NCBI GenBank assembly: GCA_964016885.1
Contig: OZ024744.1
Span: 57,970,001-58,034,000 of the forward strand
DNA length: 64,000 bases
DNA from: Eledone cirrhosa
Lineage: Eukaryota
Direction of reading: 5' to 3'
The position numbers were made by a program, and so were the translations under genes. Position 1 is the stretch's first letter. Every line of letters starts with the position of its first letter. Below, in pieces: positions 7,115 to 64,000 of this stretch. The notes beneath the pieces are model-generated. The model was not told the origin of the DNA. It ran no database searches and worked only from the letters and a program-made list of their open reading frames with translations.

Positions 7115-7157
<43 letters not shown>

Positions 7158-14421: not shown

Positions 14422-17400
14422 GTTTAATGACCATGCTGTAAAATGGAGGGGTAGAGAGGGCCCTTGAGTCTAGTAAGACATCCTCTCTAGTGCTGGTGGC
14501 ACAAATAAAAGCACCCAGTCCATGCTGTAAAGTGGCGCTGGTGTTAGGAAGGGCATCCAACCAGTGTATCAATGCCAAATCGCTTATCAGCACAGCAATA
14601 AAACAGCATAGAAAAATATGAAGACGTCGCATCTCAGAGTTGCAACACTTAATGTTGGCACTCTCAGAGGTAGATCTGCTGAAATAGCGGAGATGCTGGA
14701 GAGAAGGCAGGTGGATGTGTGCTGCATGCAAGAGGTGAGATGGAGAGGTGCCTCTGCGAGACTAGTCGTAGGCAAGCGTCTTAGCTATAAGCTATTCTGG
14801 GTAGGTAAGGATGATGGGTTAGGGGGAGTAGGCATTTTCCTGGCTGAGAAATGGATCAATAAGACAATAGAGGTAGTTCGAGTTAGTAATCGAATAATTA
14901 AGCTTAGATTAGTTGTAGGTAGGAGACTACTGACAATCATCTCGGTCTATGCTCCCCAAGCAGGCCTAAGCAAAGATGAGAAAGACTGCTTTTATGAGCA
15001 ACTTTTGCAAACAACCACAATGACAGAGGACGGAGACATCGTTATGCTAGCAGGAGACTTCAATGGTCATGTTGGACAGCTCCCGGATGGTTACACTGGG
15101 GTACATGGTGGGCACGGTTACGGTTCAAGAAATGAAGAAGGAGTGAGACTTCTTTAATTTTGTGATGCAAGTACATTGACTATTTGCAACACAAACTTCC
15201 AGAAACCTGCCAATCACCTAATAACCTACAAATCTGGTGAGCACATAAGCCAGATTGACTTCCTGCTAGTTAGGCAGCGGGACAGGCAGATAGTGTCTAA
15301 TACCAAGGCATACCCTGGGGAAGAATGTACCCCACAGCATAGGTTAGTTGTTAGTGATATCTCAGTAAGCAAGAGATGGAATGAGACATATAGGAAGGTG
15401 TGGAGAAGAAAGGTCTGGAAGCTAAAAGACCTTTCACTAAAATACAAATTTAGGAAAGCCCTTCAAGATGTATATGACGAAAAAGAAGACGATTTAGAGA
15501 CGTATGACATAGATAATAACTGGAAGTTCTTACGTGACAACTTGCTGCAGGCTACTGATGAAACCTGTGGCTGGAGCAGAGCTCCAACCAGACAGAGAGT
15601 GACCTGGTGGTGGAACAGCACAGTAGATAAGGCTATTAGAGACAAAAGACTAGCATGGAAGGCTTGGAAAAAGGGTGGGAGTAGGGAAGAATATACAGCC
15701 ACTAAGAGAGAAGCTAGACGTCAGGGGTACTTAGCATGCAGGGAGGCAGAGAGTAGGAGGTTTGCCAATGTTCTGCGACGGGAAGATCAGAGGCGTGCGG
15801 TGTTCCACATTGCAAGGCAGTGTGTCAATGCAAATCAGGATGTTGTTGGAGATAAATGTGTCCGGGATGATGCCGGTGTACTTAGTGTCATGAATGACCA
15901 GAAAAAGGAGGCCTGGAAATGTCATTATGAGAGACTGATGAATGTGGAGAACGAATGGGAGAGACAGAAATTACCCTCAGTAGATCCGACAGAGGGACCA
16001 GCTATTGAGATTGACGAATATAGGGTCCAAGAGGCGATTAGGGAAATGAAAAATGGTAAGGCGGCCGGACCATCGGGAATAGTTGCTGAGATGCTGAAGG
16101 CATCAGGGGGCGTAGGCACTAAACTGGTTGCACGCATCATCAATCAGGCTATATATGGTGGTGTCATACCCAAAGACTGGTGCAGCAGTATTCTCATAAA
16201 TTGCTACAAAAGTAAAGGGGATGCTTTGGAGAGGAGCAATTATAGGGGTATAAAACTGATAGATCAGGTTATGAAAGTGGCAGAAAGGATTTTAGCACAA
16301 CTAATTAGAGAAAGGGTCAAACTAGATGAGATGCAGTTTGGTTTTGTGCCTGGGAAGAGTACAACAGATGCCCTCTTCTTGGTGAGACAAATGCAAGAGA
16401 GGTTCTTAGAGAAGAATAAGCCACTATACTTAGCCTTTGTTGACCTAGAGAAGGCCTTTGATAGGGTACCCCGATCTGTCATCTGGTGGTCCCTAAGGAA
16501 GCTAGGTGTTGAGGAATGGCTTGTGAGGACAGTGCAAACTTTGTACAGAGGTACTCTCAGTAAAGTCAGGGTAGGAATGGAGTTTAGTGAGGAATTACAG
16601 ATACAAGTAGGAGTACATCAGGGTTCGGTCCTCAGCCCGCTCTTGTTCATTATAGTCCTCCAAGCCATAACAGAGGAGTTTAAGACTGGCTGTCCATGGG
16701 AACTTCTCTATGCTGACGATCTGGCTCTTATAGCAGAATCAGTAGAGGAGCTAGAGAATAAATTCCGGCTATGGAAACAGCAGTTGGAAGCAAGAGGACT
16801 GAGAGTAAATCTAGCTAAGACAAAAGTGTTGATGAGTAGAAAAGAGGACAAAACTCTGATTCCGTCAGGGAAATGGCCATGTTCGATATGCAGAAAAGGA
16901 ACTGGCATAAATTCTATAAAATGCACACAATGCAGGTCCTGGGTACACAAGAGATGTAGCGGGATAGCAGGCAAACTAACAGGTAGGGAGAAATATGTAT
17001 GCAGTAGATGTACAGGGAAATTAGACAGTAGAAGTCGCACTGATAGACACATTTTTCAAATGCGAAAGGGCGCTATAGAAGTGGTGGATAGCTTCCGGTA
17101 CCTAGGAGATCAGATTAGCATGGGAGGAGGGTGTTCCAAGGCCATAGTATCTAGAATAAGGACGGGTTGGAAGAAGTTTAGGGAGCTGCTTCCTCTGTTG
17201 ACGAAGAAGGGTTTCTCCCTGCGTACGAAAGGCCGGTTGTATGATGCCTGTGTGAGGAGCGCGATGCTGCATGGTAGTGAGACATGGGCAGCAACCGCAG
17301 AGGATATGCGACGGCTGGAGAGAAATGAGGCAAGCATGCTCCGTTGGATGTGCAGTGTAAATGTGCGTGAACGACCCAGCATAAATGTGTTGAGAGAGAA

Positions 17401-17703
17401 ACTGTGTCTGAGAGGGATAGAATGTAGTGTGCGAGAGAGGAGACTGAGGTGGTATGGACATGTGATGCGCATGGAGGATGACCGATGGGTGAAGAAGTGC
17501 CAGGAAATGCCAGTTGAAGGAAGACGTGGTAGAGGTAGACCACGAAAAACATGGGCGGAGGTGGTGAGAACAGACCTCAGATCATTGAAGCTCACGGTGG
17601 AGATGACGAGGGACCGTGACGAGTGGAGAGATGCTGTGCTGAATAAGACCCGTCCCACCCTTGCAAGCAGGGAAAAGCGGACGTAAAATGATGATGATGA
17701 TGA

Positions 17704-17757: not shown

Positions 17758-18070
17758 ATATATATATATGATGATGATGATGATGATATATATATATATT
17801 TCATCATCATCATCATCATCTTCGTTGAACGTCCATTTTCCACGCTAGCATGGGTTAGACGGGAGTTGTCCCACTTGAGGCAAGGCTGGTCGGGTGACTG
17901 TATCTCGCTCATATAGGACTATCTGCCCTTCCTAACACCAACCACATTTACAGTGTGGAACTGGGAACTTTTTACCGTGTTACCTACACTTATATATAAG
18001 TTTATCCTGGGTTCAATCGGGGGTAACCACAGTAAGTAAAGTACTCAAACATAGCAGAGTATAAATATTT

Positions 18071-18188
18071 AATATAGAAATGACTTCTACAGGACTAGAA
18101 CTGTTTAATTCAGGAGAAATCATCAGGGCTTCCTGATGACTTCTCCCAAATGAAACAGTTCTAGTCCTGTACAAGCCATTTCTATATT
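18071..18188. repeat. ~55-bp-arm inverted repeat, each arm with a degenerate HHR-like core
   Basis: ...aggactagaactgttt...catcagg / cctgatga...gaaacagttctagtcct... Confidence 0.75.
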
Positions 18189-18824
18189 ATATATATGTAT
18201 ATACAGTGGCAGACTGGGTCTAACAATATTGGTTGCCAGGCGATAAAGGGGACCCACTGACATATAGAATGCTATCATTTAATTTTTATAATGAATAAAT
18301 AACATTTTCAAAAAATAGATAAGTGAAAACAAAACAGTGCAATAAAATTTTTGCGGAAATGAATGTGTATTTTTTACTAATTATAGTGTATATATACTGT
18401 ACATATTACTGGCAGTATACAGTAATACTAAATGTTAATACAGAATGTTATAATTGAATTTTTAAATAATTGTGAATGTATAGTATACTGTTATTTAGAG
18501 TAGAGTTTGCAAGTGACCATTCTTAATTTCTACAATAAAAGGTATAAAGTACCTTGCGAAATATACACATCCAGGGACTTTCAATAACGACCTTTAGTCT
18601 TTCACATTCACTCAATATATATATCTGGGAGTGTGTGTATGTGTGTATATGTACATGTGTATATATATAGATTTATATATATGTATGCATACATGTTTTC
18701 AACTTGTCCTAGGGACTTTAGACTGAAGAACTGACTACTACTTGATTTTACATATGTCTTTAACCCATTGATATCAAATGTTATTGGGCCAGTAGGAATA
18801 GGCTTATTCCTACGAGGTTGCCCA

Positions 18825-19277: not shown

Positions 19278-19325
<48 letters not shown>

Positions 19326-19329
<4 letters not shown>

Positions 19330-19370
19330 CTTTATCGGTTTCACAGTTTCTTATGATTTTCAAAAGTAAA
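19326..19370 (-). ncRNA. Degenerate HHR with U3-A8 core variant
   Basis: Minus strand: tttactt-TTGAAAA-tcataagaaactgt-GAAA-ccga-TA-aagtaaa; homologous to 47795-47832. Confidence 0.5.
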
Positions 19371-19547
19371 ATTGAGAGGGAGGGTTTGTGTTTCTGTTGT
19401 GGTTTGTTTCAGATGCAAGAAACACAAACCTTCTATTTCAATTTTACTTTTGAAAATGATAAGAACTGACTCCAGGTGCATTTTCAATTTCTTTTGTTTA
19501 TACTTTCACCCATGTGGTACATCTCCTTTTTTAAAAAAACCTCATTT

Positions 19548-19684
<137 letters not shown>

Positions 19685-20756: not shown

Positions 20757-22424
20757 TATTTCTTTATTAGCCACAGGGGCACAAAAGAAGGGGACAAATA
20801 CAAAGGGGGAAGTTTACATACAATAAAAACGTGTAAAATGTTATCACAGATGGAATTTAAAAGTTAGTCGATTTTCCCCAATAGAGGGAGACAGTTTATA
20901 TGGGTAACACATACCCCCGAAAAAATGTGCAACCCTCATCTCCAGGAGTACGAAGAGCTTGTACTCCTTTCCTCTCCTCCTCCTTTTCCTCAATCTACAG
21001 GCTGATATAGAGAGAAGGCCCATTCACTCGGGCCATTCTCGCCACTTTCACCCACCTTTCATAAAACTTGCTGCGGTACAGCACCTCTCTCTCCATCCTG
21101 ATTCTTCTTCCAAAGTGGTATTTGAAAAAAAGAATCAGTTGTTGGCCGGAGAGAAAGGTGTCTGACCTCAGCCCTTTCAACCTTGTCCACCATACAACCT
21201 CTTTCGCCATAGCTATCACACAAAGGAAAACCGCCTCTCCTTCGTTTTTGAAGGAGGGTGGCGGTTTGATCATGACAATGGACTCGGTGGTCAACTGGAT
21301 TGGTCCCACCCGCGACAATAGTCGTTCTACATATCCCCACAGGTCAGTGACGCCCGGGCAGTGTATGAATGCGTGCGCGACGGTTTCTTCGTCTCGCACG
21401 CACCTCGGACAGATCTTTTTTGCAGGGTCCCTGCCCGGGCGCCCATGTCTGTAGAGCTTGTCTCGAACTGGTAGAGCTCCTCGGTAGCACTGCCAGGCCA
21501 GGGACTTTTGGAAGTTGTCCATCGGTCCCGGGCGGAAGGTCCTACCGAACAGACTGGCCAGTTCATCTTCCTCCACGCCTAGAGTTTCACCGAGCGCGTC
21601 GTCGCACTTGCTGCGGACCAACCCTCTATAGAATGACGAAGTGGAGTCTCCACTGATCGCCGGGTCCGCCTGCCAGAGGGCTGTGAGCGCCTGAGCACAT
21701 TCGATGTGCCAGTCGCCCATTTTCCTCGGTCTCTGCTTGACCCAGGACTGCAGCTCGGTCAGTGAGACGAGTCGTGGGAAGGCTCGCCTCACGAACGGGG
21801 CCCACACCGGTTGTCCGGTGAGGAATACGTAGAGATGCCGCAGCCTGAGCGCGTGTTTGCGCATCGTCAACCACGGCATCCCCAGCCCTCCGTTAGAAGG
21901 GTGTTGGCAGCAGATGGATCTTCTTACCAAAGGAGCCCGCCTCTTCCAAAGGAATCGGAAGAGGGCGCGCTCCATTTTGGCGAGCGTTTTGGCTGGACAA
22001 GGCACGACGGTCAAGCGGTAGTAGATGGCGGACGCTATAAAAGTGTTCGCCACCTCCGCTCGACCTTTCAAGGATAGTTTGCACTCGGCCCACTTCTGGG
22101 TGAGTGCAAACACCTTGGCCGTCACTTCGTTCCAGTTCTTCTCCACCTGGAGGTCCGGACCAAACCAGACCCCGAGCAGCTTTACCGGTCCTTCCGTCCA
22201 GCGTCCGACGACGCCATCGGAAGGCATCGGTCTGCCTCTCCACGATCCGAGTTGCAAACCGATGGACTTGTCCCGGTTCAGCTTCGCTCCTGTGAGACTT
22301 TCGTATTCCTTTAGTAAGGTGCCGACTTTCTCGATTTGCGAGGCGCTCGACACCATTACTGTCACGTCGTCGGCGTAGGCCGACGCCGCTTTCCGCAGTC
22401 CCGGTTCCAGAGGGATGCCCTGCA
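20757..22424 (-). mobile_element. 5'-truncated Tx1/L1-clade LINE (RT C-terminal half plus CCHC knuckle), frame open
   Basis: AYADDVT, KLLGVWFG, LSLKGRAEVAN, GGLGMP, CPRC..EETVAHAFIHC; AATAAAGAAAT 3' end abutting (GATA)n. Confidence 0.9.
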
Positions 22425-22460
22425 AAGATAGATAGATAAATAAATAGATAAATAGATAGA

Positions 22461-22914
22461 TATATTTCTTTATTAGCCACAGGGACACAAAAGAAGGGGA
22501 CAAATACAAAGGGGGAAGTTTACATACAATAAAAACGTGTAAAATGTTATCACAGATGGAATTTAAAAGTTAGTCGATTTTCCCCAATAGAGGGAGACAG
22601 TTTATATGGGTAACACACACCCCCGAAAAAAAATGTGCAACCCTCATCTCCAGGAGTACGAAGAGCTTGTACTCCTTTCCTCTCCTCCTCCTTTTCCTCA
22701 ACCTACAGGCTGATATAGAGAGAAGGCCCATTCACTCGGGCCATTCTCGCCACTTTCACCCACCTTTCATAAAACTTGCTGGGGTACAGCACCTCTCTCT
22801 CCATCCTGATTCTTCTTCCAAAGTGGTATTTGAAAAAAAGAATCAGTTGTTGGCCGGAGAGAAAGGTGTCTGAATTCAGCCCTTTCAACCTTGTCCACCA
22901 TACAACCTCTTTCG
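22461..22914 (-). mobile_element. Short Tx1 3' fragment nearly identical to the previous copy
   Basis: Matches 20757-21205; flanked by GATA repeats. Confidence 0.9.
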
Positions 22915-22935
22915 AATAGATAGATAGATAGATAG

Positions 22936-24229
22936 ATTTCTTTATTTGCCACAAGGGCGCACAAGAAAAGGGGACAATACAAAGACACATGCCAGGGATT
23001 TTACATACAGTCGTGTGAAAAAAAAAAAAAATTAAAATAAAACAATTACAACAATCGAAATCCCCAATAGGGAGGAGACGCCACAAATGGGTTGTTTAAT
23101 ACCCCGTCGATAGAACAACCCTCAACTTCAGGAGCATGTTGTGCAAGTGCTCCCTTCTTCCTTTTGCTCTCTTCTTTAACCTACAGGCTTATAAACAGAG
23201 AAGGCCCAATCACTCGGGCCATTTTCGCATCATTCACCCACCTTTCAGTAAATTTACTGGGGTGCAGTGCCTCTCTCTCCACTCTGATTCTCCTTCTAAA
23301 GTGATACTTAAAGAAGGGAATCAATTGTTGTCCAGAGAGAAAGGCATCTGTCCTCAGTCCTCTCAACCTCGTCCACCATATAACCTCTTTCACCATAGCC
23401 ACTGTACAGAGGAAAACCGCCTCTCTTTCGTTTTTGAAAGAGGCTGGCGGTTTGATCCTTACTATGGACTCGGCAGTCAACTCGATTTGTCCCATACGCG
23501 ACAGCAGTTGTTCTGCATAGTTCCACAGGTCGCAGTGTACAATTGCGTGCAAGACGGTTTCAATGTCCTGCTCGCATCTTGGACACGTCCTCTTGGAAGA
23601 ATCCCTGCCAGGGCGTCCGTACCTTTAGATCTTATCTCGAATGGGTAGAGCTCCTCGGTAGCACTGCCAGGCCAGTGACCTCTGGAAGTTGACCATAGGT
23701 CCCGGGTGGAAAGTCCTACCGAAGAGACTGGTGAGCTCGTCGTCTTCGACGCCTAGAGTCTCCCCGAGCATGTCGTTGCACTTGTAAAGTACTAACCCTC
23801 TATAGAATGTCGAAGTGGAGTCTCCACTGATTTCTGTGCCCGCTTGACAGAGGACTGTGAGCGCCTGGGCGCATTCAATGTGCCAGGCGCCCATCTTCTT
23901 CGGTCTTCGCTTGACCCAAGACTGCAGCTCCGTCAGCGAGACAAGTTGTGGGAAGGCCTGTCTCACAAACGGTGCCCACACTGGTTGGTCGGTGAGGAAT
24001 ATCTGAAGATGCCGTAGCCTCAGCATGTTTGCGCATCATTAGCCACAGCATGCCCAGCCCTCTGTTGGAAGGGTATTGACAGCAGACTGATCTCCTCACC
24101 AGTGGAGCCTGCTTCTTCCACAGGAACTGGAAGAGCATGCGTTCCATCTTGGGGAGGTATTCACGGGGACAAAGCACGACAGTCAAGCGGTAGTAGATGG
24201 CGGACGCTATGAAGTGTTCACCACCTCCA
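22936..24229 (-). mobile_element. Diverged, frameshifted Tx1 3' fragment
   Basis: ORFs 23181-23552, 23625-24026 and 23875-24186 are homologous to the 20995-22509 protein. Confidence 0.88.
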
Positions 24230-33170: not shown

Positions 33171-33987
33171 TCTAATATATATTTGTGACGGACATGAAAA
33201 TTTATACACCTATGTAAAAAGTGCCAAGGAAGCAAATAAATGAGGTTTCAAATCTCTAACTTGAAAAATGTGGTCCCTAGGGCTCCCAAACGGTCTATTT
33301 ACTATCGCGTTCGGTTAGTTATTTCCTCCCGTTCTAGTACTTGGATGAGTTATTTACAATTTCATACAAATGTTTAAACTCATCAACGTTCTTTCGCTGT
33401 TAACATACAGTACCAATAATTTAAAAAATATTATTGAAAGTTTATTATAAAGAAGCAGTTTCAGGAAAAAAAAAATAGAAATATGCACTTTGGGCTGGAC
33501 GGCGTACAATGAGAAGTGGAACGACGTGAAAAGCGTTGTTTATTAACAGCGAAATAGCAATATCGATGATATGCAAGTTTGAAAATGCAGATTAATAAAC
33601 TGTTGCCTTCTACAGTACGTTTAATTTTCACAGTACCATTTTATGAAATCGATTCTGCAGTACGGTCACTGTTTTCCATCAAAAGAAATAAAACCCTTAA
33701 ATTGCGAAGAAGGGACGCGTGTTTTTATTTTAATTCTAATACATGTTAACCACCACTAACAGTAAGTAGTATTTTTCAAATTGCATATCATCGACATTGC
33801 TATTTCGCTGTTAATAAACAATGCTTTTCACGTCGCTCCACTTCTCATTGTACGCCGTCCAGCCCCAAGTGCATATTTCTATTTTTTTTTCCTGATACTG
33901 CTTCTTTATAATAAACTTTCAATAATATTTTTCAAATTATTAACTTAATAAAAAGTGGCCCCGGGTGCAACCGGGCTCAGCTGCTAG
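33171..33987 (+). mobile_element. Non-autonomous Helitron-like element with large internal inverted repeat
   Basis: A|TC start; subterminal hairpin CCCGGG-TGCA-ACCGGG ~9 nt before CTAG|T; no TSD. Confidence 0.7.
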
Positions 33988-35543
33988 TATATATATATAT
34001 AGTGTGTAACGTTTCTCGAAATATTTACGTCTACGTTCACAGATTGATTTTTTTAGGTTCAGAAGATCCCGTTATGGGTGAAAGCAGCGATTCTTCGCTT
34101 AAACTTTAATCTGTTATTTTAATATATGTATATATAATTATATATTCGTGTACAGATATTTTTGCATACACAATAACAAAATATAAACAAACGTATTTAT
34201 TTCACGAGGCTCAATAAGGATAAATATATATCAAATATATAAGAACCCTAGAGCAAATATTGTTCTCATTGCTGACGAGGCAGAAGGGGATATACACGAT
34301 TGGCTGAAGAAGGACGAGACTGTGTTAGTAGTACGACCAATGGCTGCTATCACACCAACAGCAGCAAAAACAACAACAAAAAAAGAGAGGGAACGCAATT
34401 ACATGCTTTTGAAAAATCTTAATGGAAAATTATTTGCCTATTCACCCAAGGCGACTTCACTTTTTATTAGGACTTCTGCATCAATTGGTGAACATACGAC
34501 GAAACTGTTTCAGAAAGGAGGAATAAACATGCCAATCTATGTTTAGAATCCCGAGCAATGCCGGGCCATTCTGCTAGTAATGTACTAAAACTGTCAAACA
34601 TTGTCAACATTTCCTGTGTTTCACAGACTTTCACAAGTTGAAATAATATACGCCTCAAAGAATAGCTGCCTCTTATTTAGACAAAGCAGACAGACAGTGG
34701 ACACACACATGCGCGCGCGTGCACCCACACACACATATACATTCGTACACACACATATATAATGATATATATTGATATATGGACACTCTAATCCATGCAT
34801 AAATATAATATATGGACAGAAACGTGTAAACATATATGTACAGCTACGTAGACATAAGTAAAAAAAAATACACATATATGTAATATAATTAAATACGACT
34901 GAGATTCTATATTTTTAGATGTTCCAACATGAAGAATATTACTGGGACATTCTCATCAAAACATCCCTCAAATGCAAAAATAAAATAAAAATTCACCCTC
35001 AAATTAAATCCTATGGTCTTTTGAGGGAGAAAAGTAAGAAGACACAGAATGATGTAGTTCCTGATATAGAAAATGACAGGATGCGTAAGGTTAGAATGCC
35101 TTTGATCAGAGATGTGCATGGAAAAATAGATGTTAAACAGTTATTATGTGTGATAGACACTTGCTTGGCTGTATGATTGAGGAGTTTGTTTCACAACCAT
35201 GTAGTTTCTGATTCACTCATACAGCGTGGCATCTTGGGTAAGTGTTCTCCACTGGTAGCCTCGAGTTGGTTGATGCTTTATGAATGAAATCTGGTACATA
35301 GAAACAGTGTGGAAGATTGTTATATTTGTATATATAAACAATTTATGTAACATCAGCATCTTTCTTAATGTTATTATCATATATATGTTGAAATGACTCT
35401 TTTCCTATTACCCAATCTACTTCCCTAAGTATTGAGTACTCTGGTGTGTTATGGTCCACCTGCTATCTTACCACATCCTCTTTGTTTTATATATATATTA
35501 TATAAATTAACAAAGAAGCCTTTAATACATTAAAAATCTTTAT

Positions 35544-35588
35544 TTGCTGACAATGTTTCGTCCCATTAATTAGGACTCATCAGAGCAA
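35544..35588 (-). ncRNA. Canonical minimal type I hammerhead ribozyme
   Basis: Minus strand: ttgct-CTGATGA-gtcc-taattaatg-ggac-GAAA-cattg-TC-agcaa; GUC cleavage triplet. Confidence 0.85.
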
Positions 35589-36001
35589 GGAAAAGACAAA
35601 AAAATATCATCGGCTAGAACAAGCCAAAATTCAGAAGAATAGCGAATGGATATTTAGGAAAATTATCATGGAAAGACATGTTAAACCTAATAGGGTGCAT
35701 TGTTTTACTCTAATGCACTCAAGTATTTTTATCTTATATATGTATATATATATATATATATGTCATTATCATCATCATCATTGTTGCTTTAACGTTCACT
35801 TTCCTTGCTAGCAAGGGTTGGACGGATCTACATAGATCAAGTCAGCACTTCACAGGGTGCACAAGTACGTTCTCTATGCTGGATGCCCTTCCTATCACCA
35901 ATCACTTTACAGCATGTACTGGGTGTATTTATCGTGTAATTTACCAACACTTGGGAGGGTGTCATGCTAGCGTGCAAGATAGACGTTAATCGATGATGAT
36001 G

Positions 36002-36482: not shown

Positions 36483-36520
<38 letters not shown>

Positions 36521-36560
36521 GAAAATGAAGAATCAGTGATGCATCGGAACTCAATTTATT

Positions 36561-36653
36561 ACGTATTACAATTGTTTCCCCGGCGAACAGCTCGAGGTGC
36601 GATCTGTGTGTGGATCAAACCTGACTCTGGATTCACAGGTTCCTCAGACACGT
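36561..36653 (-). ncRNA. HHR with ~61-nt extended stem II
   Basis: Inverted copy of 44126-44218. Confidence 0.75.
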
Positions 36654-37076
36654 CTAGTGATTTCGGAGCAAATCCTCTTTCTCTAGGGTTCCGACCTTAC
36701 GAGTCTATATCATCTACCTTCATCCTGTTTGCGCGTCCTTGGATTGGTCACTGATTTGTGACATCATCATAGTTCTGACAACTGGAAGCAGCCCACTGAC
36801 CATCAAGGCGTAAGCTGTCACTCACTCACAGTCCCATCGGCAAAATTACTCCCACACGCACACACACGCGCACCGAGAGACACAGACAGAATAACTTGCG
36901 TGCTTGCCTTCACACATGTACCTACAGAAATATATACACATATCTATATATACACACACATACACAGTCACACAAATATACACATACATGCACACACACA
37001 CACATATGCATGTATGCACATATACACACACACACACCTGTATATATACATACATACATACACACGCATACATATA

Positions 37077-42724: not shown

Positions 42725-44125
42725 ACATACATACACATATACACACAAACAAATACATATATATATATATACCTACACACACGCACACGCACACATATAT
42801 ATATATACACATATATATATCCCCCCTCCCTACATGTGTGTATATACATACACGCGTAAATATATATATACATAAATATGTGTGCTTACATATGCATATA
42901 CATATGTGCTTACATATGCATATACATATACATACATATGCATATACATATACATACATACGTGCGCGTACTTTTACATGTACATGCACACACATACATC
43001 CACCTATACATATATACCCATGCACACACGCATATATGCACTCACACCCAGACTGATGTACGCGTATACACGTACTCTCATATATGAGAATAAACAGTAT
43101 AAAAAATACAGAAATATAAGAAAAATATACAAGATATAAAATCATATAAAAAATATATAAGAAATATAAACTGTATTAAAATATGTGGAGGGTGTATACA
43201 GCAAGCACATGGTGTTGTCCATAGAAATGTTACGTGAGGGAAATACGTGCAAGGTACGAAAAAGTACATATGGGATTGCGACGGTTAATGCATGCACCAT
43301 CTCACATGACGGTATATAGGTTCGTTGACACACTTTGATGTACATGTTGACAGAGTTGGCATTATGGTGCTAACGTAGATTAAACAAAATTATATATGGG
43401 GAGCTCATAGGAATAATGTAAAGGGTATACCCAGAACATATATAGAAAATACATACAGAATATATAAAAAATATATTTAAAAAAATATATAAAGAAAAAT
43501 ATATTTAAAAAATACACATTGGTTTGTACATGAAAACATACATAAGGTGTTACATAATGGAATGTGTGGAGAAGATATACACACTACTTAAAAGATACAT
43601 ATGTAGGGAGTGTGGGAGAACAGCCTATGTTACTATGGGTGAAATAGAGTGCCTTATTGATGTATGATACGCGATTGATTATACTCATGGTAATTGAGCC
43701 ACCGTGTCCTGGCTCCTGCGACGTCGTTGCTTAAGATGAGGTGCTGAGTCTAATGGGCAGTATAGATTGTGTCGATTTACCCCACAGGGCATACATAATC
43801 ATCAAGGCATGGTGTCTGTTCCCTTGGACCCGCGCCGCCACCCAGACTGACGTCTGCTTCCCCGTATGCCTTTAGTTTGGGCCATCCGGTGGTGTCCATG
43901 TGGAGAGTGTGCACCTTCTCTGATGTCTGCATGCCATGATAATCTCCGATTTCAGGTTGACTGCATCACGCCTTGACGTTCAGTGGGCTGCTTCCAGTGG
44001 TCAGAACTATGATGACGTCACAAACCAGTGACCAATCCAAGGATGCGCAAACAGGATGAAGGCGAATGATATAGTCTCGTAAGATCGGAACCCTAGAGAA
44101 AGAGGATTTGCTCCGAAATCACTAG

Positions 44126-44218
44126 ACGTGTCTGAGGAACCTGCGAATCCAGAGTCAGGTTCGATCCACACACAGATCGCACCTCGAGCTGTTCGCCGGG
44201 GAAACAATTGTAATACGT
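44126..44218 (+). ncRNA. HHR with ~61-nt extended stem II and palindromic stem III
   Basis: acgtgt-CTGAGGA-a-[cctgcgaa...aggttcgatc..gatcgcacct...ttcgccggg]-GAAA-caattg-TA-atacgt. Confidence 0.78.
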
Positions 44219-44259
44219 AATAAATTGAGTTCCGATGAATCACTGATTCTTCATTTTTC

Positions 44260-44317
<58 letters not shown>

Positions 44318-48031: not shown

Positions 48032-49332
48032 GGTGGGGCATAATTCCTGTTACAAAGTTTTAAATCAATTTAAAAATACATTATGTTGCTAATATAACTA
48101 ATATATTTGTATCAAATCCATGCACTATAACCATATTAACTATTTTTCAGAACATTACTCCATTAACAATTTGCAATGTCCATAGAATTGAAAAGAAAGT
48201 TCATAATAGAGAAGCATGAAAAAGGCCTGACTCCACCCAAGATATTTAAACTAGGGAAAATTCTTAAGATCAATAGAATGTTGATCAAAAGGACAATCGA
48301 TCGATTTAAGGAAACTTCCTCGATCAAAGACAGACCTCGATCCTGTCGCCCTCGCACCTCAAGAACACCAAAACTCGTTAAAAGTGTGAGGGAAAAAATA
48401 AGGCGTAATCCAAGAAGGTCCATGAGAAAAATGGCAGAAGAAGCAGAAACATCGCCGAGAACTATGCGGAGGATATGTCGAAATGATCTGGGGATGTCAC
48501 CCTATAAGTTCCAAAAGAGGGAACTTCTTTCTGCAGCCACAATTGAAAAGAGGCTCTCCAGAAGTAAACTGTTATTGAACTGTATCAAGGATGGCACGCT
48601 GCAAAACATCATCTTTACAGATGAGAAGTTATTCACTGTGCAGCAGTCTCACAATCATCAAAATGATCGAGTACTTGCAAAAAGTCTCAAATCAATTCCT
48701 TCAAGTGTAGCAAAAGTGTTCAGAACACAGAAACCAGCATCAGTGATGATTTGGGCAGCCATTTCTGAAAGAGGTAAGTCTCCTCTGATTTTTGTGCCTC
48801 AAGGAGTTAAAATTAACAAAGAACTTTACATAAAGGATATTTTGGAAGGAGCACTGATGCCATGGTGCATATCTGTTTATGGCGATGACATTTGGACTCT
48901 CCAACAAGATGGAGCGATGAGCCACACTGCTTGCATAACACAACAGTGGTGTAGAGACCATTGTCCTGCATGGTTCAGTAAGGAAGAGTGGCCTCCCACA
49001 TCACCAGATCTCAACCCTCTCGATTTTTCTTTATGGTCAATTCTTGAGAGTGAAACCTGCTCTACTCCTAGCCTAAATATTGAAACTCTAAAATCAAAAC
49101 TGAATAAAGTATGGGAGAAAATACCCATGGAAACTGTTCGTGCAGTCATCGAAGACTTTCCTAGAAGACTTCCAGCGGTGGTGAGAGTTAGAGGAAAGCA
49201 TTTCGAATAAATTTTTGTGCAGTTGTTTAATAGTATATTACTTACTATTTGTTGAAGTCAGATCTTGAAATAAATGTTTTTTTCAAGAACTATTTGCATT
49301 TTATTTTGTAACAGTTTTTATGCCCCACCCTG
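48029..49332 (+). mobile_element. Full-length Tc1/mariner DD37D (maT-type) transposon
   Basis: 26-bp TIRs CAGGGTGGGGCATAA(TTC/AAA)CTGTTACA with TA on both sides. Confidence 0.95.
48176..49210 (+). CDS. DD37D transposase, 344 aa, uninterrupted
   Basis: HTH region with RPR, FTDEK, QQDGA, SPDLNPLD; 37 residues between the second and third Asp. Confidence 0.95.
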   Translation: MSIELKRKFIIEKHEKGLTPPKIFKLGKILKINRMLIKRTIDRFKETSSIKDRPRSCRPRTSRTPKLVKSVREKIRRNPRRSMRKMAEEAETSPRTMRRICRNDLGMSPYKFQKRELLSAATIEKRLSRSKLLLNCIKDGTLQNIIFTDEKLFTVQQSHNHQNDRVLAKSLKSIPSSVAKVFRTQKPASVMIWAAISERGKSPLIFVPQGVKINKELYIKDILEGALMPWCISVYGDDIWTLQQDGAMSHTACITQQWCRDHCPAWFSKEEWPPTSPDLNPLDFSLWSILESETCSTPSLNIETLKSKLNKVWEKIPMETVRAVIEDFPRRLPAVVRVRGKHFE

Positions 49333-49339
49333 TATATAT

Positions 49340-49868
49340 ATATTGGTAAAAGGAAAAGAAAATGCTGACAAATTGTTCCCAGTGAAAAATAGTTTAATTA
49401 GGAATAAGTAAAAATTAGTAATAAGTATTGGTTAGTATTCAGTTTTGGTTTTAAGTTTTTACCGGTTGCGCATTTCTAATGCTTTTCAAAAATAATTTTG
49501 AGATAGAGCGCCCGTGATGTTTGCTCTAATCTGATTAATTTTGGAAATTCTACCTGTTTTATGTGAAAAAGGTGGCTCCAGATGTATTAAAATAAGTTTC
49601 CCGCCAATTCGTGTTGCAAAAATTCTTGTGGTCAAAACAATTTTGATTGGTCGGTAGAGGTCATGTGAATGTTAAAAATTGATTTTGCGCCAAATGTAGG
49701 TTTGTCTCGGCTGATTGAGAAGTCACTGAAAAATAAGTCTTTTAAGACAAATATGTGTGTGTGTGTGTGTGGTAGTAAAGAGGTTCATTGTTGTGATAAT
49801 GGTCAGTAGGGATGTATGTGTGAATTGCAGTCATGTTGACAGGTCAACAGTTCAGGTGCCTATTAAGA

Positions 49869-50300: not shown

Positions 50301-50432
50301 CATAACTCGTGTGTTACACCTCTATTCTTTTAAATATATATATATATATATATCAAAGGTATATATTGAGTTAGGAACTCAAAATAGTCTCTTACAATAA
50401 AATAGCTCTAAGAAAGAGATATTTCTAAGCTG

Positions 50433-50945
50433 TATATTATAATTGAATATAAAAGAAAAACGAACACAGATATATACATATGTGTTCAAATCGTAAGGGA
50501 CCAGATTCGCTAAGGTGGAAAGAATACTAACTATAGACAATAGGGTTTGCCTGACTCAATTTAAGAAAAAATCAAGAAAATAAATACAAACCGGAATTGT
50601 GGTAACTACCAATCACCCAGACAGCTCTTGGTGCTGTTTCGCAATATTAATTATGAATAGAAATACCAATTCTTGCTCATCAGTGGGTGAAGAATTAGTA
50701 TGCTAGACACTTCTAAGTATATTAAGAAACTGAATAGTGTGCTATATATAATAACGCACATGGTATCTTAGCGTGTCTCTTCCGGTTTGTATTTATTTCC
50801 TTGATTTTTTCTTAAATTGAGACAGGCAAACCCTATTGTCTATAGTTAGTATTCTTTCCACCTTAGCGAATCTGGTCCCTTGCGATTTGAACACATATAT
50901 GTATATATCTGTGTTCGTTTTTCTTTTATATTCAATTATAATATA
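50433..50945. repeat. ~163-bp-arm inverted repeat enclosing an HHR
   Basis: 50433-50596 versus 50780-50945, few mismatches. Confidence 0.9.
50613..50690 (-). ncRNA. Type I HHR with full stem III
   Basis: Minus strand: tcaccca-CTGATGA-gcaa...ttgc-GAAA-cagc-accaaga-gctg-TC-tgggtga. Confidence 0.85.
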
Positions 50946-50964
50946 TATATATATAAATATACAT

Positions 50965-51005
<41 letters not shown>

Positions 51006-51079
51006 TGGTGTTGGATGCTTAAAGCGTCTGTATGCGGTAGGCCGTATGAGCACTCAATGCCCTCGTAGAGCAGAGTATG

Positions 51080-51219
51080 ATATCATAGAAAAAAGAGAAT
51101 CAGTGTTGCGACGAAAGGAATTTATTGGACATTTTACAATTGTTTCTCGGGTCACCCGAGAAACAATTGTAAAATGTCCAATAAATTCCTTTCGTCGCAA
51201 CACTGATTCTCTTTTTTCT

Positions 51220-51226
<7 letters not shown>
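51080..51226. repeat. Near-perfect palindrome with 73-bp arms
   Basis: Centre at 51153 (ctcgggt-c-acccgag); one G-T mismatch near the base. Confidence 0.95.
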
Positions 51227-51259
<33 letters not shown>

Positions 51260-51464
51260 AAAGTTTTATTTAAGATTGTTGGGTTACAACGAGTAAATAT
51301 TTTATAACTGATATAAAAGCACTCAACAGTTTCTGGAGTAGGTTTACGATATTAAACAATACATAAGCTGTTTTATAAATCAACTTTTTAAATCAACTTT
51401 TTAAAAGGAAGTTGCATTATTACAAGGTATGTCACTAATTATTTATAAAACAGCTTATGTATTG

Positions 51465-51530
51465 TATTTTGTCTGAGGAAGGCATAACATATTTTTAATA
51501 TGATATCCCAGAAATATATATAACGAAATA
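51465..51530 (+). ncRNA. Type I HHR, palindromic stem III (TATATA)
   Basis: tattttgt-CTGAGGA-a-ggcataacatatttttaatatgatatccc-a-GAAA-tatata-TA-acgaaata. Confidence 0.65.
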
Positions 51531-52153
51531 GATATGGTTTTATAAATATATATATATATATACTGAAAACATGACAGTGCTCCAGTTTTATTAAGGATTT
51601 TTCCTTACCATTCCTAAATCATGACTCCATCTACAGAACCAGAAGGGTCATACTAGTAGCATATTGATCACATTCTTAGCAGGGATCATGAAACATGGAA
51701 AATTCTGTGTGTCTGTTTTTTCTTTCTTTTTTTTTTAGTTAGAGAGAAAAGAAAAGTCCTTGCACATATCTCTCCATGGCTGGTGGGGGGAGGGAGGTAT
51801 TCTCAAACAGGGGACCTTGTTCAAAATCTTTCAACAGAATAGATTTTGTTAAAGATACCCAATGACCAGGCGGTGTTATTAAACTGGACAATTGATTAGG
51901 TCTATCACACCAAGAGGAAATGTTACAGAAAAGAAAATAGAGGAACGTTTGTAGCACCTAACACCTGCTCAAAAGAAATTTAATGAAAATTAAAAACCCA
52001 CCAATGAAATTCCAGCATTGATCCACACTGAGCTCTAAAATAGAGGTGACACCTTAACATAAAGAAATGTAGTTGAAATGATGGTTCAATTGATAAATTA
52101 ATAACTGATTAAAAATATTTTGCTTTTGAAGATTTTTTTGTTGTATGAATGAA

Positions 52154-58500: not shown

Positions 58501-58576
<76 letters not shown>

Positions 58577-58713
58577 AAGGTTAAACAAGGTTCAATGAAT
58601 AAATCAAAGAATGAGTTTTACAATAGATTGGAAGCACTCAACAAAAATGGTTTTCCGGAGTTATTAATATTAATTCAAAATATTAACAAAATAGATATTC
58701 TTGTGATCAAGTA

Positions 58714-58780
58714 TATTTTATTATACATATTTCAGAGGTACTGAGTTAACTTCAACAGTACGTCCTCATCAGATAAAATA
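58714..58780 (-). ncRNA. HHR in the PLE pLTR, moderately extended stem II
   Basis: Minus strand: tattttat-CTGATGA-ggac-gtactg-ttgaagttaact-cagtac-ctct-GAAA-tatgta-TA-ataaaata. Confidence 0.75.
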
Positions 58781-59314
58781 AGATGATGCATGACATACCC
58801 TGACATAGTAAATGGTTAAGATTCAGTCATGGTAGTGAGTAATATATGATAAAACTCAATATTTATATACCTTAATATTGAAAACATGAAAAAAACCCAC
58901 ATATAATACATATAATACATATAATACATATAATAGAGAGGGTACGTGTGAGAAAGCTTAAAAGAATACAAGGCAGCAATATAACTGTTAAAGATTCAAA
59001 TAATTTAAATTACTGAAGAAAGAGGAAAGAAAAGAAAGACATAGAGGAAGAAACAGATGAGGGGATAATATAGCTAGTAGGAGCCTAGAAAACAAAAGAG
59101 AGTTGATTACAGAGAGAGATAGATAAAGAGGAATAACTTTTATAATGTAATAATATAGGGAGATATTAAATTAGAACAACATTTGGGCTTAGCTTTAGGA
59201 AAACGAAAAAATTCAATTCATTGAATTATTGAAATATCTAAAAATATTCATCAATCGGAATTTTAAATATAATTGGGTGTATTCATATGAAGGTTAATAC
59301 CAAGTCTTTAGACA

Positions 59315-60069
59315 ATTATTTATTGAGGAAGACCTGCTAGTTAGACTGATTGCTCCATCTAAATCGGATATTGGAGTAATCAGTAAGAATATTATTGATA
59401 GAATTCTACCTATTCTGAAATTGAGGTCTAAATTGAGCTTGTGGAAAGACACCAATGAAGTGATTGATTGGTTTAAAAATATAGATAAGAAAAACCACAA
59501 ATTCATCCAAATGGACATAGCAATCTATTACTCTTCCATTACACCTAACCTATTAAATAAGGCCTTATCCCACGCTTACAAACATACAGATCTAACTACG
59601 GATGAAATCGATATCATATTAACTGCTAGAAGAACTCTAATTAATTTCAACAATGAATATTGGACCCGCTCTGATAGAAATAGAAACTTTGACATTACCA
59701 TGGGATCATCGGTCTCAGCGCAAGTCACGGATCTTCTGGAGATTTTCATCTTAAATATGGTAAATAGAAAACTGCCGGAGATTACCGGTGGTTTATATAG
59801 GGACGATATTTTATTTACGGTTGTCAAACACAGCAATACAGAACTAAATAGGGTTAAGAAAACTATAATTGAATTCTTTAAAAATTACGACCTTAAATTA
59901 GAGGTTGAAAGTGGTACCAAAATAGTTAATTTCCTTGATGTTACCCTTAACTTAAACTCTGGTTTTTATTTCCCTTTCCATAAGCCCAATGAAAACTTAA
60001 ATTACGTTAGTTATTACTCTAATCACCCTAAATCTGTGAAAAATGCAATTGTTAATAGTGTACAGAAAC
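59315..60069 (+). pseudogene. Inverted duplicate of the PLE RT core
   Basis: Protein is identical to 62841-63764 except G>E (LLGIF versus LLEIF); truncated after NSVQK. Confidence 0.9.
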
Positions 60070-62079
60070 TCAGTCATGGTAGTGAGTAATATATGACAAA
60101 ACTCAATATTTATATACCTTAATATTGAAAACATGAAAAAAAAACACATATAATTCATATAATAGAGAGGGTGCGTGTGAGAAAGCTTAAAAGAATACAT
60201 GGCAGCAATATAACTGTTAAAGATTCAAATAATTTAAATTACTGAAGAAAGAGGAAAGAAAAGAAAGGCATAGATGAAGAAACAGATGGGGGGATAATAT
60301 AGCTAGCAGGAGCCTAGAAAACAAAAGAGAGTTGATTACAGAGAGAGAGATAAAGAGGAATAACTTCTATAATGTAATAATATAGGGAGATATTAAATTA
60401 GAACAACATTTGGGCTTAGCTTTAGGAAAACGAAAAAATTCAATTCATTGAATTATTGAAATATCTAAAAATATTCATCAATCGGAATTTTAAATATAAT
60501 TGGGTGTATTCATATGATGGTTAATACCAAGTCTTTAGATAATTATCTATATATACAATATATATCCAAACATATCTGGTTGACCGTTAACATTCAAAAC
60601 ATTTAATTTAAGTTAGTTTAGAGTAATGAATAATATTTTAGGTTATAAAAGTTAATAATTAACTGTATTAATATTAAAGTATACTATCATATTTAATTTA
60701 TAAAATCAAATTTTATTAAATCAAATTTAAAGGATTTACAAACACGAGAAAGAAAACAATGTTTTTACAACCTCACGAAGGTAAACTTTACAAAATTTTT
60801 TATATAATATTAAATTATTTATATTATATTGAAAATAGTTTATATTATATAATTTAGAAAATAATTACATTTATAACTTTTAAGATTAACAATTTGAATG
60901 CCTAATGGATCAACAGGCCTTATAATTAAACTTTAAAAAAAAAGCTTGATCATTAAATTATATATATGCGTTTATCAAAAAAATACACAAAGATTATATT
61001 GTCTAAAGACTTAAGATGATACCTCTCAATTAGACATAACCTAATACAATACAATAAATAAGTTACTGAAAATATTGTTAAAATTAATGTTTTAGATCAA
61101 TTATTGTAATAGGATTATTTAATAGATATATACTATAAATATACAAGTCAAAACTTCATGAGTCCTAAGGATAAGGACTAGATTCAAAATAAAAAGTGAA
61201 AAAAGTAAAAATAATAAATTGTTTACGATCATAAAAGTGCCCAATATCAAAAAAATATAGTTTAAAATGCAAGAGAGTTTTTTTTAATTTTATATAGTAG
61301 ATTAACAACCCTTCTAAAGTGTCTACGAAGATGATAGAAAGAGGAGCTAAGGATTTGAATAACCCGAAGGTAACCCGAATTTAATTAAAATAAATTAAAT
61401 TAAATTAAGTAATAATCGTTATATAATTTAGAACAATTAAGGAAATTATAACAATAGTTATTTGAGTATCCAAATCATTTGAGTATCCAAATTACTTATA
61501 AATGTAACCAGGAGCATGTTATTATACTAGATAAACAAATTTGTTCAAATATATAGAGAGAGTATTATAGGTATTAGTGAAATGATATACATATAATAAA
61601 TAATGTTATAATTGTAGTTTTACATCCAGTTCAGTGGAAAGAAAGACTAATATTTGCCGACTAGTATGATTTGTGACCTAAATATATATAAAAAAATATA
61701 TATGTACAAATCTAACTTTCTGAATCCCCAAACATACTCAAAATGAGTAAAATATATAAATTCATGAATGATTTACGGTTCAATTATAACCGGTAATCTT
61801 ACAAGTTATATATCCAAATTATATATTTAAAACAAAAACAAATATATAAGGATCCCAATCTAAATTATATATATCTAAAATAATCCAAAGGTGTGCATAT
61901 TCATCAAGAGAACAAGTTAACAAATAATATGTTTATATACCTAAACAGTGTAACATTTATATACCTTCAGTGTAACATTAATTCTATCATAAATGAATAG
62001 AAAATAAAATGTTTATAATCTGTTATAACATTTTAGGTACACAGTTGATAAGAGACGTCAAAAATTAAAACTTGTTTAT

Positions 62080-63870
62080 TTAGTGTTTTTTCCTGACATT
62101 TTGCGAGACTTTGAATGTAGACAAAGCTTTATGGAGGCAGTTTGAGAATAATTCACTTTTTTTGTTAATTGAGTTTTCATAATTAGTAATTATTAATAGG
62201 GTCTCCATAGTACAGAGGTTGCAGTTAGGTGATATTGACGAATTCGAGTAGATTCTACTATTACATAGCTTCGTCCAAAAAATCGAGTATTTTAAATTTT
62301 TGTCTTTTAATGACCATATACGTTGTGATAAAGAAGTCGAAGACTTCCTATTAGGATTCGAAAAAGAGCGTTTGTGATTCCCAAATCTCGATTTAAATGT
62401 CGAAGAAGTTGCCCCTATGTAATTGTATGTGATGTTATTTGCTTTTACGGTGCATTTATACACCAAATTTCTATCTAGACAATTATTTTGCAGAGGGCAA
62501 TCTGGTTTATTTCTACAATTACATTTCGATTTATTATTATTATAATTTATATTAACACTATTATTACTTCAAAATGTTCTATTGATAGTGCTTATATTGC
62601 TGTTAATGTTATTCATAGTATCAATATTGTTAGTGTTATTATATTCATTATTGTTATAAGTATGCGGATTCTGGTTTAGAATTCTACTATTTAATTTAGC
62701 GATGTTTTTGGTCATATTCATAGTTGTAGAATAAGAAAGCTTAATTGTGTGTCTATTAAATATGGAACGGTATTTATGTTGAATAGGGAAGGAATTATCT
62801 AAAGCTTTAAAGAATAGATTAGCGAGTGGTGTTTTTATTGCTACAGAAGCAGGGGGGGGGGGGGTAGGGACCATATAACTGATTTAGTTCTGGTTTTTTC
62901 CCCCAATTTATTCACAGTACAGGTGTTTGAATTATAATTTTTAGAATTTCGTTTATACATGTCAGTCATATTATTATTTTTATCAGGATTAAGATTCAAA
63001 TTATTATTGTCAATATATTCTATATTATATTTATAACCTGCCTTTCTTAGCGCATCATTGTAATATCCTGCTTTTTCATCAAATATGGATTTATTAGCAG
63101 ATATTCTAGTTATGCGTTTCTGTACACTATTAACAATTGCATTTTTCACAGATTTAGGGTGATTAGAGTAATAACTAACGTAATTTAAGTTTTCATTGGG
63201 CTTATGGAAAGGGAAATAAAAACCAGAGTTTAAGTTAAGGGTAACATCAAGGAAATTAACTATTTTGGTACCACTTTCAACCTCTAATTTAAGGTCGTAA
63301 TTTTTAAAGAATTCAATTATAGTTTTCTTAACCCTATTTAGTTCTGTATTGCTGTGTTTGACAACCGTAAATAAAATATCGTCCCTATATAAACCACCGG
63401 TAATCTCCGGCAGTTTTCTATTTACCATATTTAAGATGAAAATCCCCAGAAGATCCGTGACTTGCGCTGAGACCGATGATCCCATGGTAATGTCAAAGTT
63501 TCTATTTCTATCAGAGCGGGTCCAATATTCATTGTTGAAATTAATTAGAGTTCTTCTAGCAGTTAATATGATATCGATTTCATCCGTAGTTAGATCTGTA
63601 TGTTTGTAAGCGTGGGATAAGGCCTTATTTAATAGGTTAGGTGTAATGGAAGAGTAATAGATTGCTATGTCCATTTGGATGAATTTGTGGTTTTTCTTAT
63701 CTATATTTTTAAACCAATCAATCACTTCATTGGTGTCTTTCCACAAGCTCAATTTAGACCTCAATTTCAGAATAGGTAGAATTCTATCAATAATATTCTT
63801 ACTGATTACTCCAATATCCGATTTAGATGGAGCAATCAGTCTAACTAGCAGGTCTTCCTCAATAAATAAT
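62080..63870 (-). pseudogene. PLE RT-GIY-YIG ORF, 5'-truncated, frameshifted at the G-run (~62851) and near 62570
   Basis: Consecutive ORFs 62841-63764, 62569-62874 and 62080-62466 join into one PLE protein. Confidence 0.88.
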
Positions 63871-64000
63871 TGTCTAAAGACTTGGTATTAACCTTCATAT
63901 GAATACACCCAATTATATTTAAAATTCCGATTGATGAATATTTTTAGATATTTCAATAATTCAATGAATTGAATTTTTTCGTTTTCCTAAAGCTAAGCCC

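What the first reader, a model, noticed from the sequence alone, without database searches (positions are those of the whole stretch)
51080..51226. Pure palindrome made of an HHR 3' half plus pLTR tail: minimal product of fold-back retrotransposition
Each arm reads GAAACAATTGTA..AATAAATT..CACTGATTCT..TTTT then TA, clearly related to 44201-44265. The fold point lies inside HHR stem II. With 18.1, 19.7, 36.5-44.3, 49.3, 50.4 and 58.6-64 kb this forms a size series of outward-facing pLTR pairs next to (TA)n. Inference: two 3' ends primed on opposite strands of the symmetric TA target, or cDNA snap-back at the ribozyme hairpin, produce MITE-mimicking palindromes. Inverted pLTRs are known for PLEs; this extreme form linked to stem II may not be described.
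Basis: partly seen in the sequence, partly recalled or inferred. Interest (0 to 1): 0.7.

Follow-up and report, generated by a model that had tools for sequence, protein, structure and literature searches.

The report
Head-to-head Penelope stub, two start sites
This mirror-image DNA is one of hundreds of short head-to-head stubs of a Penelope-type jumping gene, a known footprint; it was likely made by copying one RNA twice from two fixed start points, and the stubs mostly stop at one spot that likely marks the RNA's start, not at the ribozyme.

Summary
The palindrome is real (66-nt perfect arms, 1-nt centre at 51153) but not 'pure': the left arm carries a family-constant tail, so the insert spans about 51001-51226. 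It is a short head-to-head insertion of a 5-kb, Hydra-like Penelope element (RT, GIY-YIG, pLTR) in (TA)n. In 98 junction-blind copies, 65 have an inverted partner. That partner reaches into the tail in 64 (60 to its end); one further, dropped copy had two tail-less ends. Both arms share haplotype, so they likely come from one template. The fold here does lie in hammerhead stem II, but stem II is not enriched (rate ratio 0.98, p=0.92, 212 ends). Ends pile up instead at -107..-96, upstream of the ribozyme (70 of 212, 18-fold), and none falls at the cut site. Snap-back alone cannot build most copies. Best reading: two reverse-transcription starts on opposite target strands, joined by microhomology, with run-off at the RNA 5' end. 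The architecture is published, and the scan has notes with these key words in at least 45 genomes, several with the same reading. Reads did not span this junction.

The parts
50937..51003 (.). Left (TA)n tract: insertion target; no target duplication can be read
51001..51079 (-). Tail (+67..+145 relative to the G of GAAA). Ends at site B, with 3 nt (TAT) shared with the TA target. In full-length copies it continues into the ORF (ATG at +185).
51001..51152 (-). Tailed arm (site B arm), reaching 5' to -6 including the microhomology
   Evidence: and the sequence
51150..51226 (+). Tail-less arm (site A arm), -10..+66. Ends at site A, with ATAT shared with the TA target.
51150..51153 (.). Head-to-head junction: 3-nt microhomology GGT at the element's interrupted palindrome GGT-C-ACC. 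The central C (51153) can only come from the tail-less arm.
   Evidence: read from the sequence
51160..51178 (+). Hammerhead 3' half only (GAAA, 2-bp stem III with AATT loop, predicted cut after 51171, stem I 3' strand). No CUGANGA core, so no complete ribozyme.
51128..51146 (-). Mirror copy of the hammerhead 3' half. Shares with the right arm a rare T-to-A variant (51133/51173).
51223..51256 (.). Right (AT)17 tract

Best explanation
The stretch is a short head-to-head insertion of a Hydra-like Penelope retrotransposon in a (TA)n tract, likely made when both target strands were cut and primed reverse transcription on one RNA from two fixed start sites (pLTR end and tail end), and the two short cDNAs were likely joined by a 3-base microhomology. 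Shown: the parent element, the one-tailed/one-tail-less pairing, the shared haplotype of the arms, short microhomologies at clean junctions, no stem II preference, and a pile-up of ends near -103. Inferred: that the two ends are RT start sites (by analogy with the anole element in PMC11167929); that one RNA molecule, rather than two from the same locus, served both arms; that -103 is the RNA 5' end, so most stubs are run-off copies of the mRNA leader; and that host end-joining sealed the junction. This copy stopped early, at a spot where the element's own GGT-C-ACC offered the microhomology. It lacks the ribozyme core and the ORF-side sequence, so it is probably a dead end.
For: Parent: the pLTR flanks an RT + GIY-YIG ORF in L105, L106, L111. 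Asymmetry: of 65 inverted copies chosen by the tail-less end, 60 partners reach the tail end, 4 end inside the tail and 1 at +32. Of 40 copies chosen by the tail, 20 partners resolve to the tail-less end and none to a second tail (8 are cut off or truncated, 12 not inverted). An unrelated 512-nt tandem family follows the same rule: 27 of 28 inverted partners reach its tail end, none ends tail-less. Same source: both arms carry the minor allele at 47 of 70 informative site-locus pairs, against a permutation mean of 10.3, maximum 20. The focal arms share a variant seen in 4 exact matches genome-wide, 2 of them these arms, against 341 for the common form. Junctions: 17 of 25 clean junctions have 2 nt or more of microhomology against 16% expected (p=1e-8). 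Run-off: 70 of 212 ends lie at -107..-96, and 70 of the 95 arms that get that far stop there. Dead ends: 364 exact tail ends run into TA against 4 that run on into the ORF (the two patterns differ in length). PMC11167929 reports cutting and extension of both strands, two RT starts bounding the tail, and a predicted dimer.
Against: No read or contig spanned this junction in 7 runs laid, so the locus is not independently verified. No RNA run was listed, so the 5' end at -103 is untested. There is no extra-G (cap) bias before -103 (3 G of 22). 33 of 98 copies have no inverted partner. One copy with two tail-less ends (L151_0) was dropped before the counts. 30 of 55 uncorrected junctions carry 1-49 inserted or unassigned bases rather than microhomology. 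23 of 70 informative sites disagree between arms, which later mutation can explain but two templates could too. PMC11167929 saw no difference in start site between strands and does not report a one-of-each rule. Near-symmetric folds outside the run-off zone are mildly in excess (6 against 2.5, p=0.03), which a snap-back fraction would give. The second family shows no run-off peak.
Confidence: 0.7

Rival explanations
1. Two RNA molecules from the same source locus (or two units of one tandem transcript), one per RT subunit, each give one arm.
For: Both arms copy the same stretch in 52 of 64 copies (12 tailed arms stay within the tail), which is easier with two templates. Haplotype sharing shows the same source, not the same molecule.
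Against: Two independent RNAs should give tail/tail and tail-less/tail-less pairs often; seen in 1 of 66 and 0 of 20. 26 rare variants are shared by both arms.
Confidence: 0.15
2. One reading: one cDNA snaps back on itself at the ribozyme hairpin and copies itself (self-priming, as proposed in PMC3846280).
For: The focal arms are identical over 66 nt and share a rare variant. Near-symmetric folds are mildly in excess (p=0.03). Some junctions show short fold-back or templated pieces (L056, L082, L150, L174, L178).
Against: The copied arm cannot be longer than its template, yet the tail-less arm reaches further in 39 of 65 copies, and it cannot supply the tail. At this locus a fold-back of the tailed cDNA would leave G, not C, at 51153. 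No stem II enrichment.
Confidence: 0.08
3. A longer inverted insertion later lost its centre by microhomology-mediated deletion, or its arms were homogenised, leaving this short perfect palindrome.
For: Internal deletions occur in arms (L150, L157, L176). Arms here differ at 1 of 73 positions against about 4 expected from the family rate (hand arithmetic, P about 0.09).
Against: Symmetric and asymmetric copies have like rates of unshared changes (0.026 against 0.028 per arm-nt), so there is no general homogenisation. It does not explain the tail rule, only the length of this copy.
Confidence: 0.05
4. A MITE moved by a DNA transposase, or an assembly fold-back artefact.
For: Terminal inverted repeats in a TA context. 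No read bridging the centre.
Against: Centres differ from copy to copy. The arms are the 3' end of an RT-encoding element. A fold-back artefact would mirror the flanks and the tail, which differ on the two sides.
Confidence: 0.02

Closest known systems
EN+ Penelope-like insertions with an inverted 5'-truncated pLTR and a one-sided tail (Adineta Pen2a, PMC3846280; overview in PMC8557442; D. virilis Penelope, PMC2377424)
   Same: Head-to-head inverted ends, tail on one side only, palindromes at the junction, AT-rich targets.
   Different: Both halves here are under 160 nt with no ORF. The tail is 76-79 nt rather than 30-40. Self-priming, the explanation offered in PMC3846280, does not fit most copies here.
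Hydra clade of C-terminal EN+ PLEs (PMC8557442, section 11)
   Same: DKT, CxCX5C linker, no CCHH, CxxC and CxH around the conserved E and N, (TA)n targeting, hammerhead in the pLTR.
   Different: RWR instead of RWK. The unit is about 5.0 kb with a 3' UTR of about 2 kb, against under 3 kb described. No tree was built.
PAc (Poseidon of Anolis) in vitro mechanism (PMC11167929)
   Same: Two fixed 3' ends bounding a tail; AT-rich target; both strands used; ribozyme cutting not needed (0 of 212 ends at the cut site here).
   Different: Here both sites lie upstream of the ATG (+66, +145; ATG +185) and share 3-4 nt with the target. The text I read reports no one-site-per-strand rule and no 5' run-off.
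L1 twin priming
   Same: Second priming at an internal site from the other target strand; microhomology at the inversion; 12 of 64 copies here have non-overlapping arms as in L1.
   Different: The internal site is fixed, and in most copies both cDNAs copy the same stretch, which gives palindromes.
Minimal hammerheads of metazoan PLEs (PMC4209133)
   Same: Type I, short stem III with palindromic loop, unpaired base 5' of stem II; pairs on opposite strands 100-700 bp apart were noted there in Schistosoma.
   Different: Stem II here is a 62-nt hairpin, and 23 of 42 cores read CCGAGGA rather than CUGANGA. Activity untested.

Membership tests
EN+ Penelope-like element insertion | Parent with RT and C-terminal GIY-YIG between pLTRs | tested here: met
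   L105, L106, L111. RT read from motifs and from tblastn to the window's second RT. Pfam GIY-YIG only weak (E=0.014, below cut-off). No Pfam or PDB hit for the RT pieces.
EN+ Penelope-like element insertion | Inverted 5'-truncated copy with a tail at one end only | tested here: met
   This locus; 64 of 65 inverted copies
EN+ Penelope-like element insertion | Hammerhead motif in the pLTR | tested here: met
   Stem I, core, stem II, GAAA, stem III in the family and sister family; same stem II fold with 2 of 21 pairs changed on both sides in 6 sequences. The focal insert holds only the 3' half.
EN+ Penelope-like element insertion | Target-site duplication | tested here: inconclusive
   Both ends lie in (TA)n
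Hydra clade PLE | DKT and RWK motifs | tested here: met
   SDKT present; RWR variant of RWK
Hydra clade PLE | CxCX5C linker; CCHH absent; CxxC and CxH around E and N | tested here: met
   CNCRVREEC; one Cys between VVY and YIG; CKLC and CRH
Hydra clade PLE | Insertion into (TA)n | tested here: met
   251 and 364 exact end-plus-TA matches (TA is part of the pattern); TA within 10 nt of 45 of 47 tail ends not selected for it
Hydra clade PLE | Generally short (under 3 kb) | tested here: not met
   Unit about 5.0 kb; hence filed as Hydra-like
Hydra clade PLE | Phylogenetic placement of the RT | not tested
   No reference Hydra sequences were fetched
MITE | Fixed-size copies with one fixed interior | tested here: not met
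   Junctions and lengths vary, 82-580 nt
MITE | Symmetric termini derived from a DNA transposon | tested here: not met
   Termini are asymmetric and derive from an RT element
Non-LTR retrozyme | Short non-coding tandem monomers, each with a complete hammerhead | tested here: not met
   Single inverted insert with half a ribozyme. The neighbouring family at 50.35-50.93 kb does form 512-nt tandem units.
Active hammerhead ribozyme | Self-cleavage | not testable with these tools
   0 of 212 arm ends at +10..+14 gives no genomic sign of cut templates

The most novel reading that the evidence does not exclude
Penelope insertion is obligately two-handed: an RT dimer copies one RNA from two fixed sites onto opposite target strands, one site per strand. 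Because those sites lie in the leader of the element's own mRNA, most events run off the RNA 5' end and leave palindromic 'strong-stop' stubs that map the transcription start (-103 here) from DNA alone. This would explain the inverted pLTR and the one-sided tail as one event.
Probability: 0.5. Interest if true: 0.6.

Novelty: new member of a known kind. Interest (0 to 1): 0.35.

Why it matters
How Penelope elements make their inverted ends and one-sided tail is still open (PMC8557442; PMC11167929 leaves the later steps unvalidated). The counts here turn that into direct tests: one start site per strand, one template for both arms, and a predicted RNA start at -103. They also argue against self-priming and against a role of the ribozyme in setting ends in this family. 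In practice such stubs can be mistaken for MITEs or miRNA hairpins (this one scores a sub-threshold miRNA match). The single locus itself is ordinary.

Tried and rejected
Stem II enrichment: tested three ways, not found. A post-hoc window around GAAA (-12..+11) gave rate ratios of 1.26 and 1.59 (p=0.32, 0.07). Ends at the ribozyme cut site: 0 of 212. Cap-derived extra G before -103: not seen. Splice acceptor at the TAG near -100: rejected because 23 of 162 ends include the ATAG. General homogenisation of arms after insertion: not seen. Read check: 7 of 9 listed runs laid; contigs are short and low in depth and the raw runs are RAD-seq; nothing covers 51134-51168 at 98% identity, which is inconclusive. 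No RNA holder listed. Rfam gave no hammerhead hit at this locus, only sub-threshold miRNA matches. Pfam and PDB did not name the RT. The protein atlas gave no answer. Sequence look-up in earlier scan notes found nothing. Literature searches returned no paper stating a one-site-per-strand rule or 5' run-off for PLEs; subscription papers and the supplements of PMC11167929 (Figs S1, S2) were not seen and may bear on this.

Full report
Observation. The window holds a perfect palindrome at 51087-51219: 66-nt arms around one C at 51153, extending to 51080/51226 with one mismatch. Only the right arm runs into (TA)n. The left arm continues for about 76 nt to the TA tract at 51003, and that extension recurs on one side of all 16 best-matching palindromic loci printed (in L030 the other end lacks TA). 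The insert is therefore about 51001-51226. Positions below count from the G of the hammerhead's GAAA. An octopus-type host is my guess and the wording of an earlier scan note, not a result.

Parent element. Longer copies lead through a 3' UTR of about 2 kb to a GIY-YIG endonuclease and an RT. L105, L106 and L111 show pLTR-ORF-UTR-pLTR, a unit of about 5.0 kb. The protein has RWR, SDKT, a CxCX5C linker, one cysteine between VVY and YIG, and CKLC/CRH. These match the Hydra clade description (PMC8557442, section 11, read whole), except for length; no tree was built. Pfam gave only a weak GIY-YIG match and nothing for the RT pieces. The extension is the canonical tail: the sequence that follows the pLTR and leads to the ATG at +185. 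The two 3' ends are site A (+66) and site B (+145); each shares 3-4 nt with the TA target.

Ribozyme. The family has a type I hammerhead with a 7-bp stem I, a 2-bp stem III with an AATT loop and a 62-nt stem II. The family and the sister copies at 36.5 and 44 kb give the same stem II fold, with 2 of 21 pairs changed on both sides among 6 sequences. 23 of 42 readable cores are CCGAGGA. The focal fold (-10..-6) is in the 3' strand of stem II. Neither arm has the core, so the insert has no complete ribozyme.

Sample. A pattern for site A plus TA has 251 exact matches. I examined 99 of the first 100 listed, chosen without regard to the junction. One (L151_0, two tail-less ends, sharing its junction with a neighbour 760 bp away) was dropped before counting, leaving 98. 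14 end calls were corrected by hand and one partner arm (L189) was left out of the end counts. A second set is the 40 best tail matches of 1443 candidates; the focal locus, 4 duplicates and 1 read-through copy were left out when pooling to 212 ends.

Result 1, asymmetry. 65 of 98 copies have an inverted partner: 60 reach site B, 4 end in the tail, 1 at +32. In the tail set 20 partners resolve to site A and none to a second tail. An unrelated 512-nt tandem family next door (30 of 41 matches, two identical) has inverted partners in 28, of which 27 reach its tail end and 1 is unresolved.

Result 2, fold points. Stem II is not enriched: rate ratio 1.04, p=0.90 in the first set; 0.98, p=0.92 pooled; 1.32, p=0.2 on a stricter baseline. 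Ends concentrate at -107..-96, mode -103: 70 of 212, 18-fold, and 70 of the 95 arms that reach that far. No end falls at the predicted cut site (+10..+14); I ran that test after reading earlier notes that report such stops in other genomes. The top hits fold near stem II only because the query selected them.

Result 3, one source. Both arms carry the minor allele at 47 of 70 informative site-locus pairs, against 10.3 by permutation (68 loci). Shared plus unshared changes per arm (0.0185 + 0.0275) equal the tail's rate (0.047), as expected if shared ones come from the source and unshared ones from ageing. The focal arms share a variant found in only 2 other exact matches against 341 for the common form.

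Result 4, joints. Of 55 uncorrected junctions, 25 are clean and 17 of these have 2 nt or more of microhomology (16% expected, p=1e-8); 30 have short inserted or unassigned bases, some templated. This mix resembles alternative end-joining (recalled). At the focal locus the overlap is GGT, and the central C belongs to the tail-less arm.

Mechanism. PMC11167929 (main text read; supplements not seen) shows a Penelope protein cutting and extending both strands of an AT-rich target and starting at two internal RNA sites that bound the tail, with a predicted dimer and no need for ribozyme cleavage. The data here fit one start per strand on one template, with end-joining of the two cDNAs. D. virilis Penelope starts transcription inside its upstream pLTR (PMC2377424, passages). 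If this element does the same at -103, both start sites lie in the mRNA leader and most cDNAs run off after 170 or 250 nt; longer copies (25 of 212 ends) need tandem read-through RNA. The tandem family shows no such peak, as expected for a multimeric template. Tail ends run into TA 364 times and into the ORF 4 times, so the stubs are mostly dead ends. Snap-back (PMC3846280, part 1, passages and Discussion read) fails for the 39 of 65 copies where the tail-less arm is the longer and cannot supply the tail; it may account for a few symmetric copies (6 against 2.5 expected, p=0.03).

Limits. No read spans this junction and no RNA run was listed. An artefact is unlikely because tail and flanks are not mirrored and the family shows many distinct junctions. 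The RNA start, single-molecule templating and ribozyme activity are untested; no cap-G signal was seen.

What is known. Inverted truncated ends with a one-sided tail are standard for these elements (PMC3846280; PMC8557442, passages). Hammerhead pairs on opposite strands were noted in PMC4209133 (part 1 of 4 read). PMC13282606, PMC3681739 and bioRxiv 10.64898/2026.07.22.740005 were seen as passages and add nothing on mechanism. Five searches returned no paper with the one-site-per-strand rule or the run-off. My reading was recorded before the first look-up. The scan's notes hold 495 findings with these key words in at least 45 genomes, and several of the 8 shown give the same twin-priming and run-off reading; these are unchecked and not counted as support. 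Verdict: a new member of a known kind; stem II link rejected; interest 0.35.

Noticed in passing
window 50354-50940: Head-to-head insert of a second, non-coding family: 512-nt tandem unit, hammerhead with a full stem III (minus strand, core at 50683), 86-nt tail on one side. Looks like a retrozyme moved by a Penelope element and follows the same tail rule.
   Followed up: yes
window 50354-51545: Three different inverted-repeat inserts sit side by side, separated only by (TA)n tracts: a local insertion hot spot.
   Followed up: partly
window 36515-36820 and 43951-44265: Sister Penelope family (78% to this pLTR; CUGAGGA core), two tail-less-type ends facing outward 7 kb apart around a Gypsy-like element (38.5-41.8 kb). 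One insertion or two is unresolved.
   Followed up: partly
window 58570-64000: Another Hydra-like Penelope (RT about 45% identical to this family; EN with CxCX5C at 62080-62568) with an 888-nt 100% inverted repeat, so probably very young.
   Followed up: partly
window 18070-18190, 19320-19560, 33467-33890, 49330-49500: Other TA-flanked inverted repeats unrelated in sequence to this family; 18.1 kb carries a CUGAUGA...GAAAC core, 19.3 and 49.3 kb are related to each other.
   Followed up: partly
window 35543-35589 (minus): Sub-threshold Rfam type I hammerhead match (28.8 bits, E=0.006) next to (TA)n.
   Followed up: no
window 3559-11068: 7.5-kb array of a 26-bp unit, interrupted near 6927-7427 by a GIY-YIG endonuclease fragment of canonical Penelope type.
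   Followed up: no
L151 (G000:C2:102548380-102549600): Two neighbouring inserts share the same junction in reverse complement; one has two tail-less ends. Possibly a palindrome re-copied locally.
   Followed up: partly
L142, L202: Near-perfect 250-nt-arm palindromes with 12 shared but only 1-3 unshared changes: divergent source or arm homogenisation.
   Followed up: partly
window 14612-17686, 20995-23648, 48167-49210: RTE-like LINE with a long ORF, L1/Tx1-like fragments and a Tc1/mariner-like transposase ORF (family names recalled from motifs, not searched).
   Followed up: no
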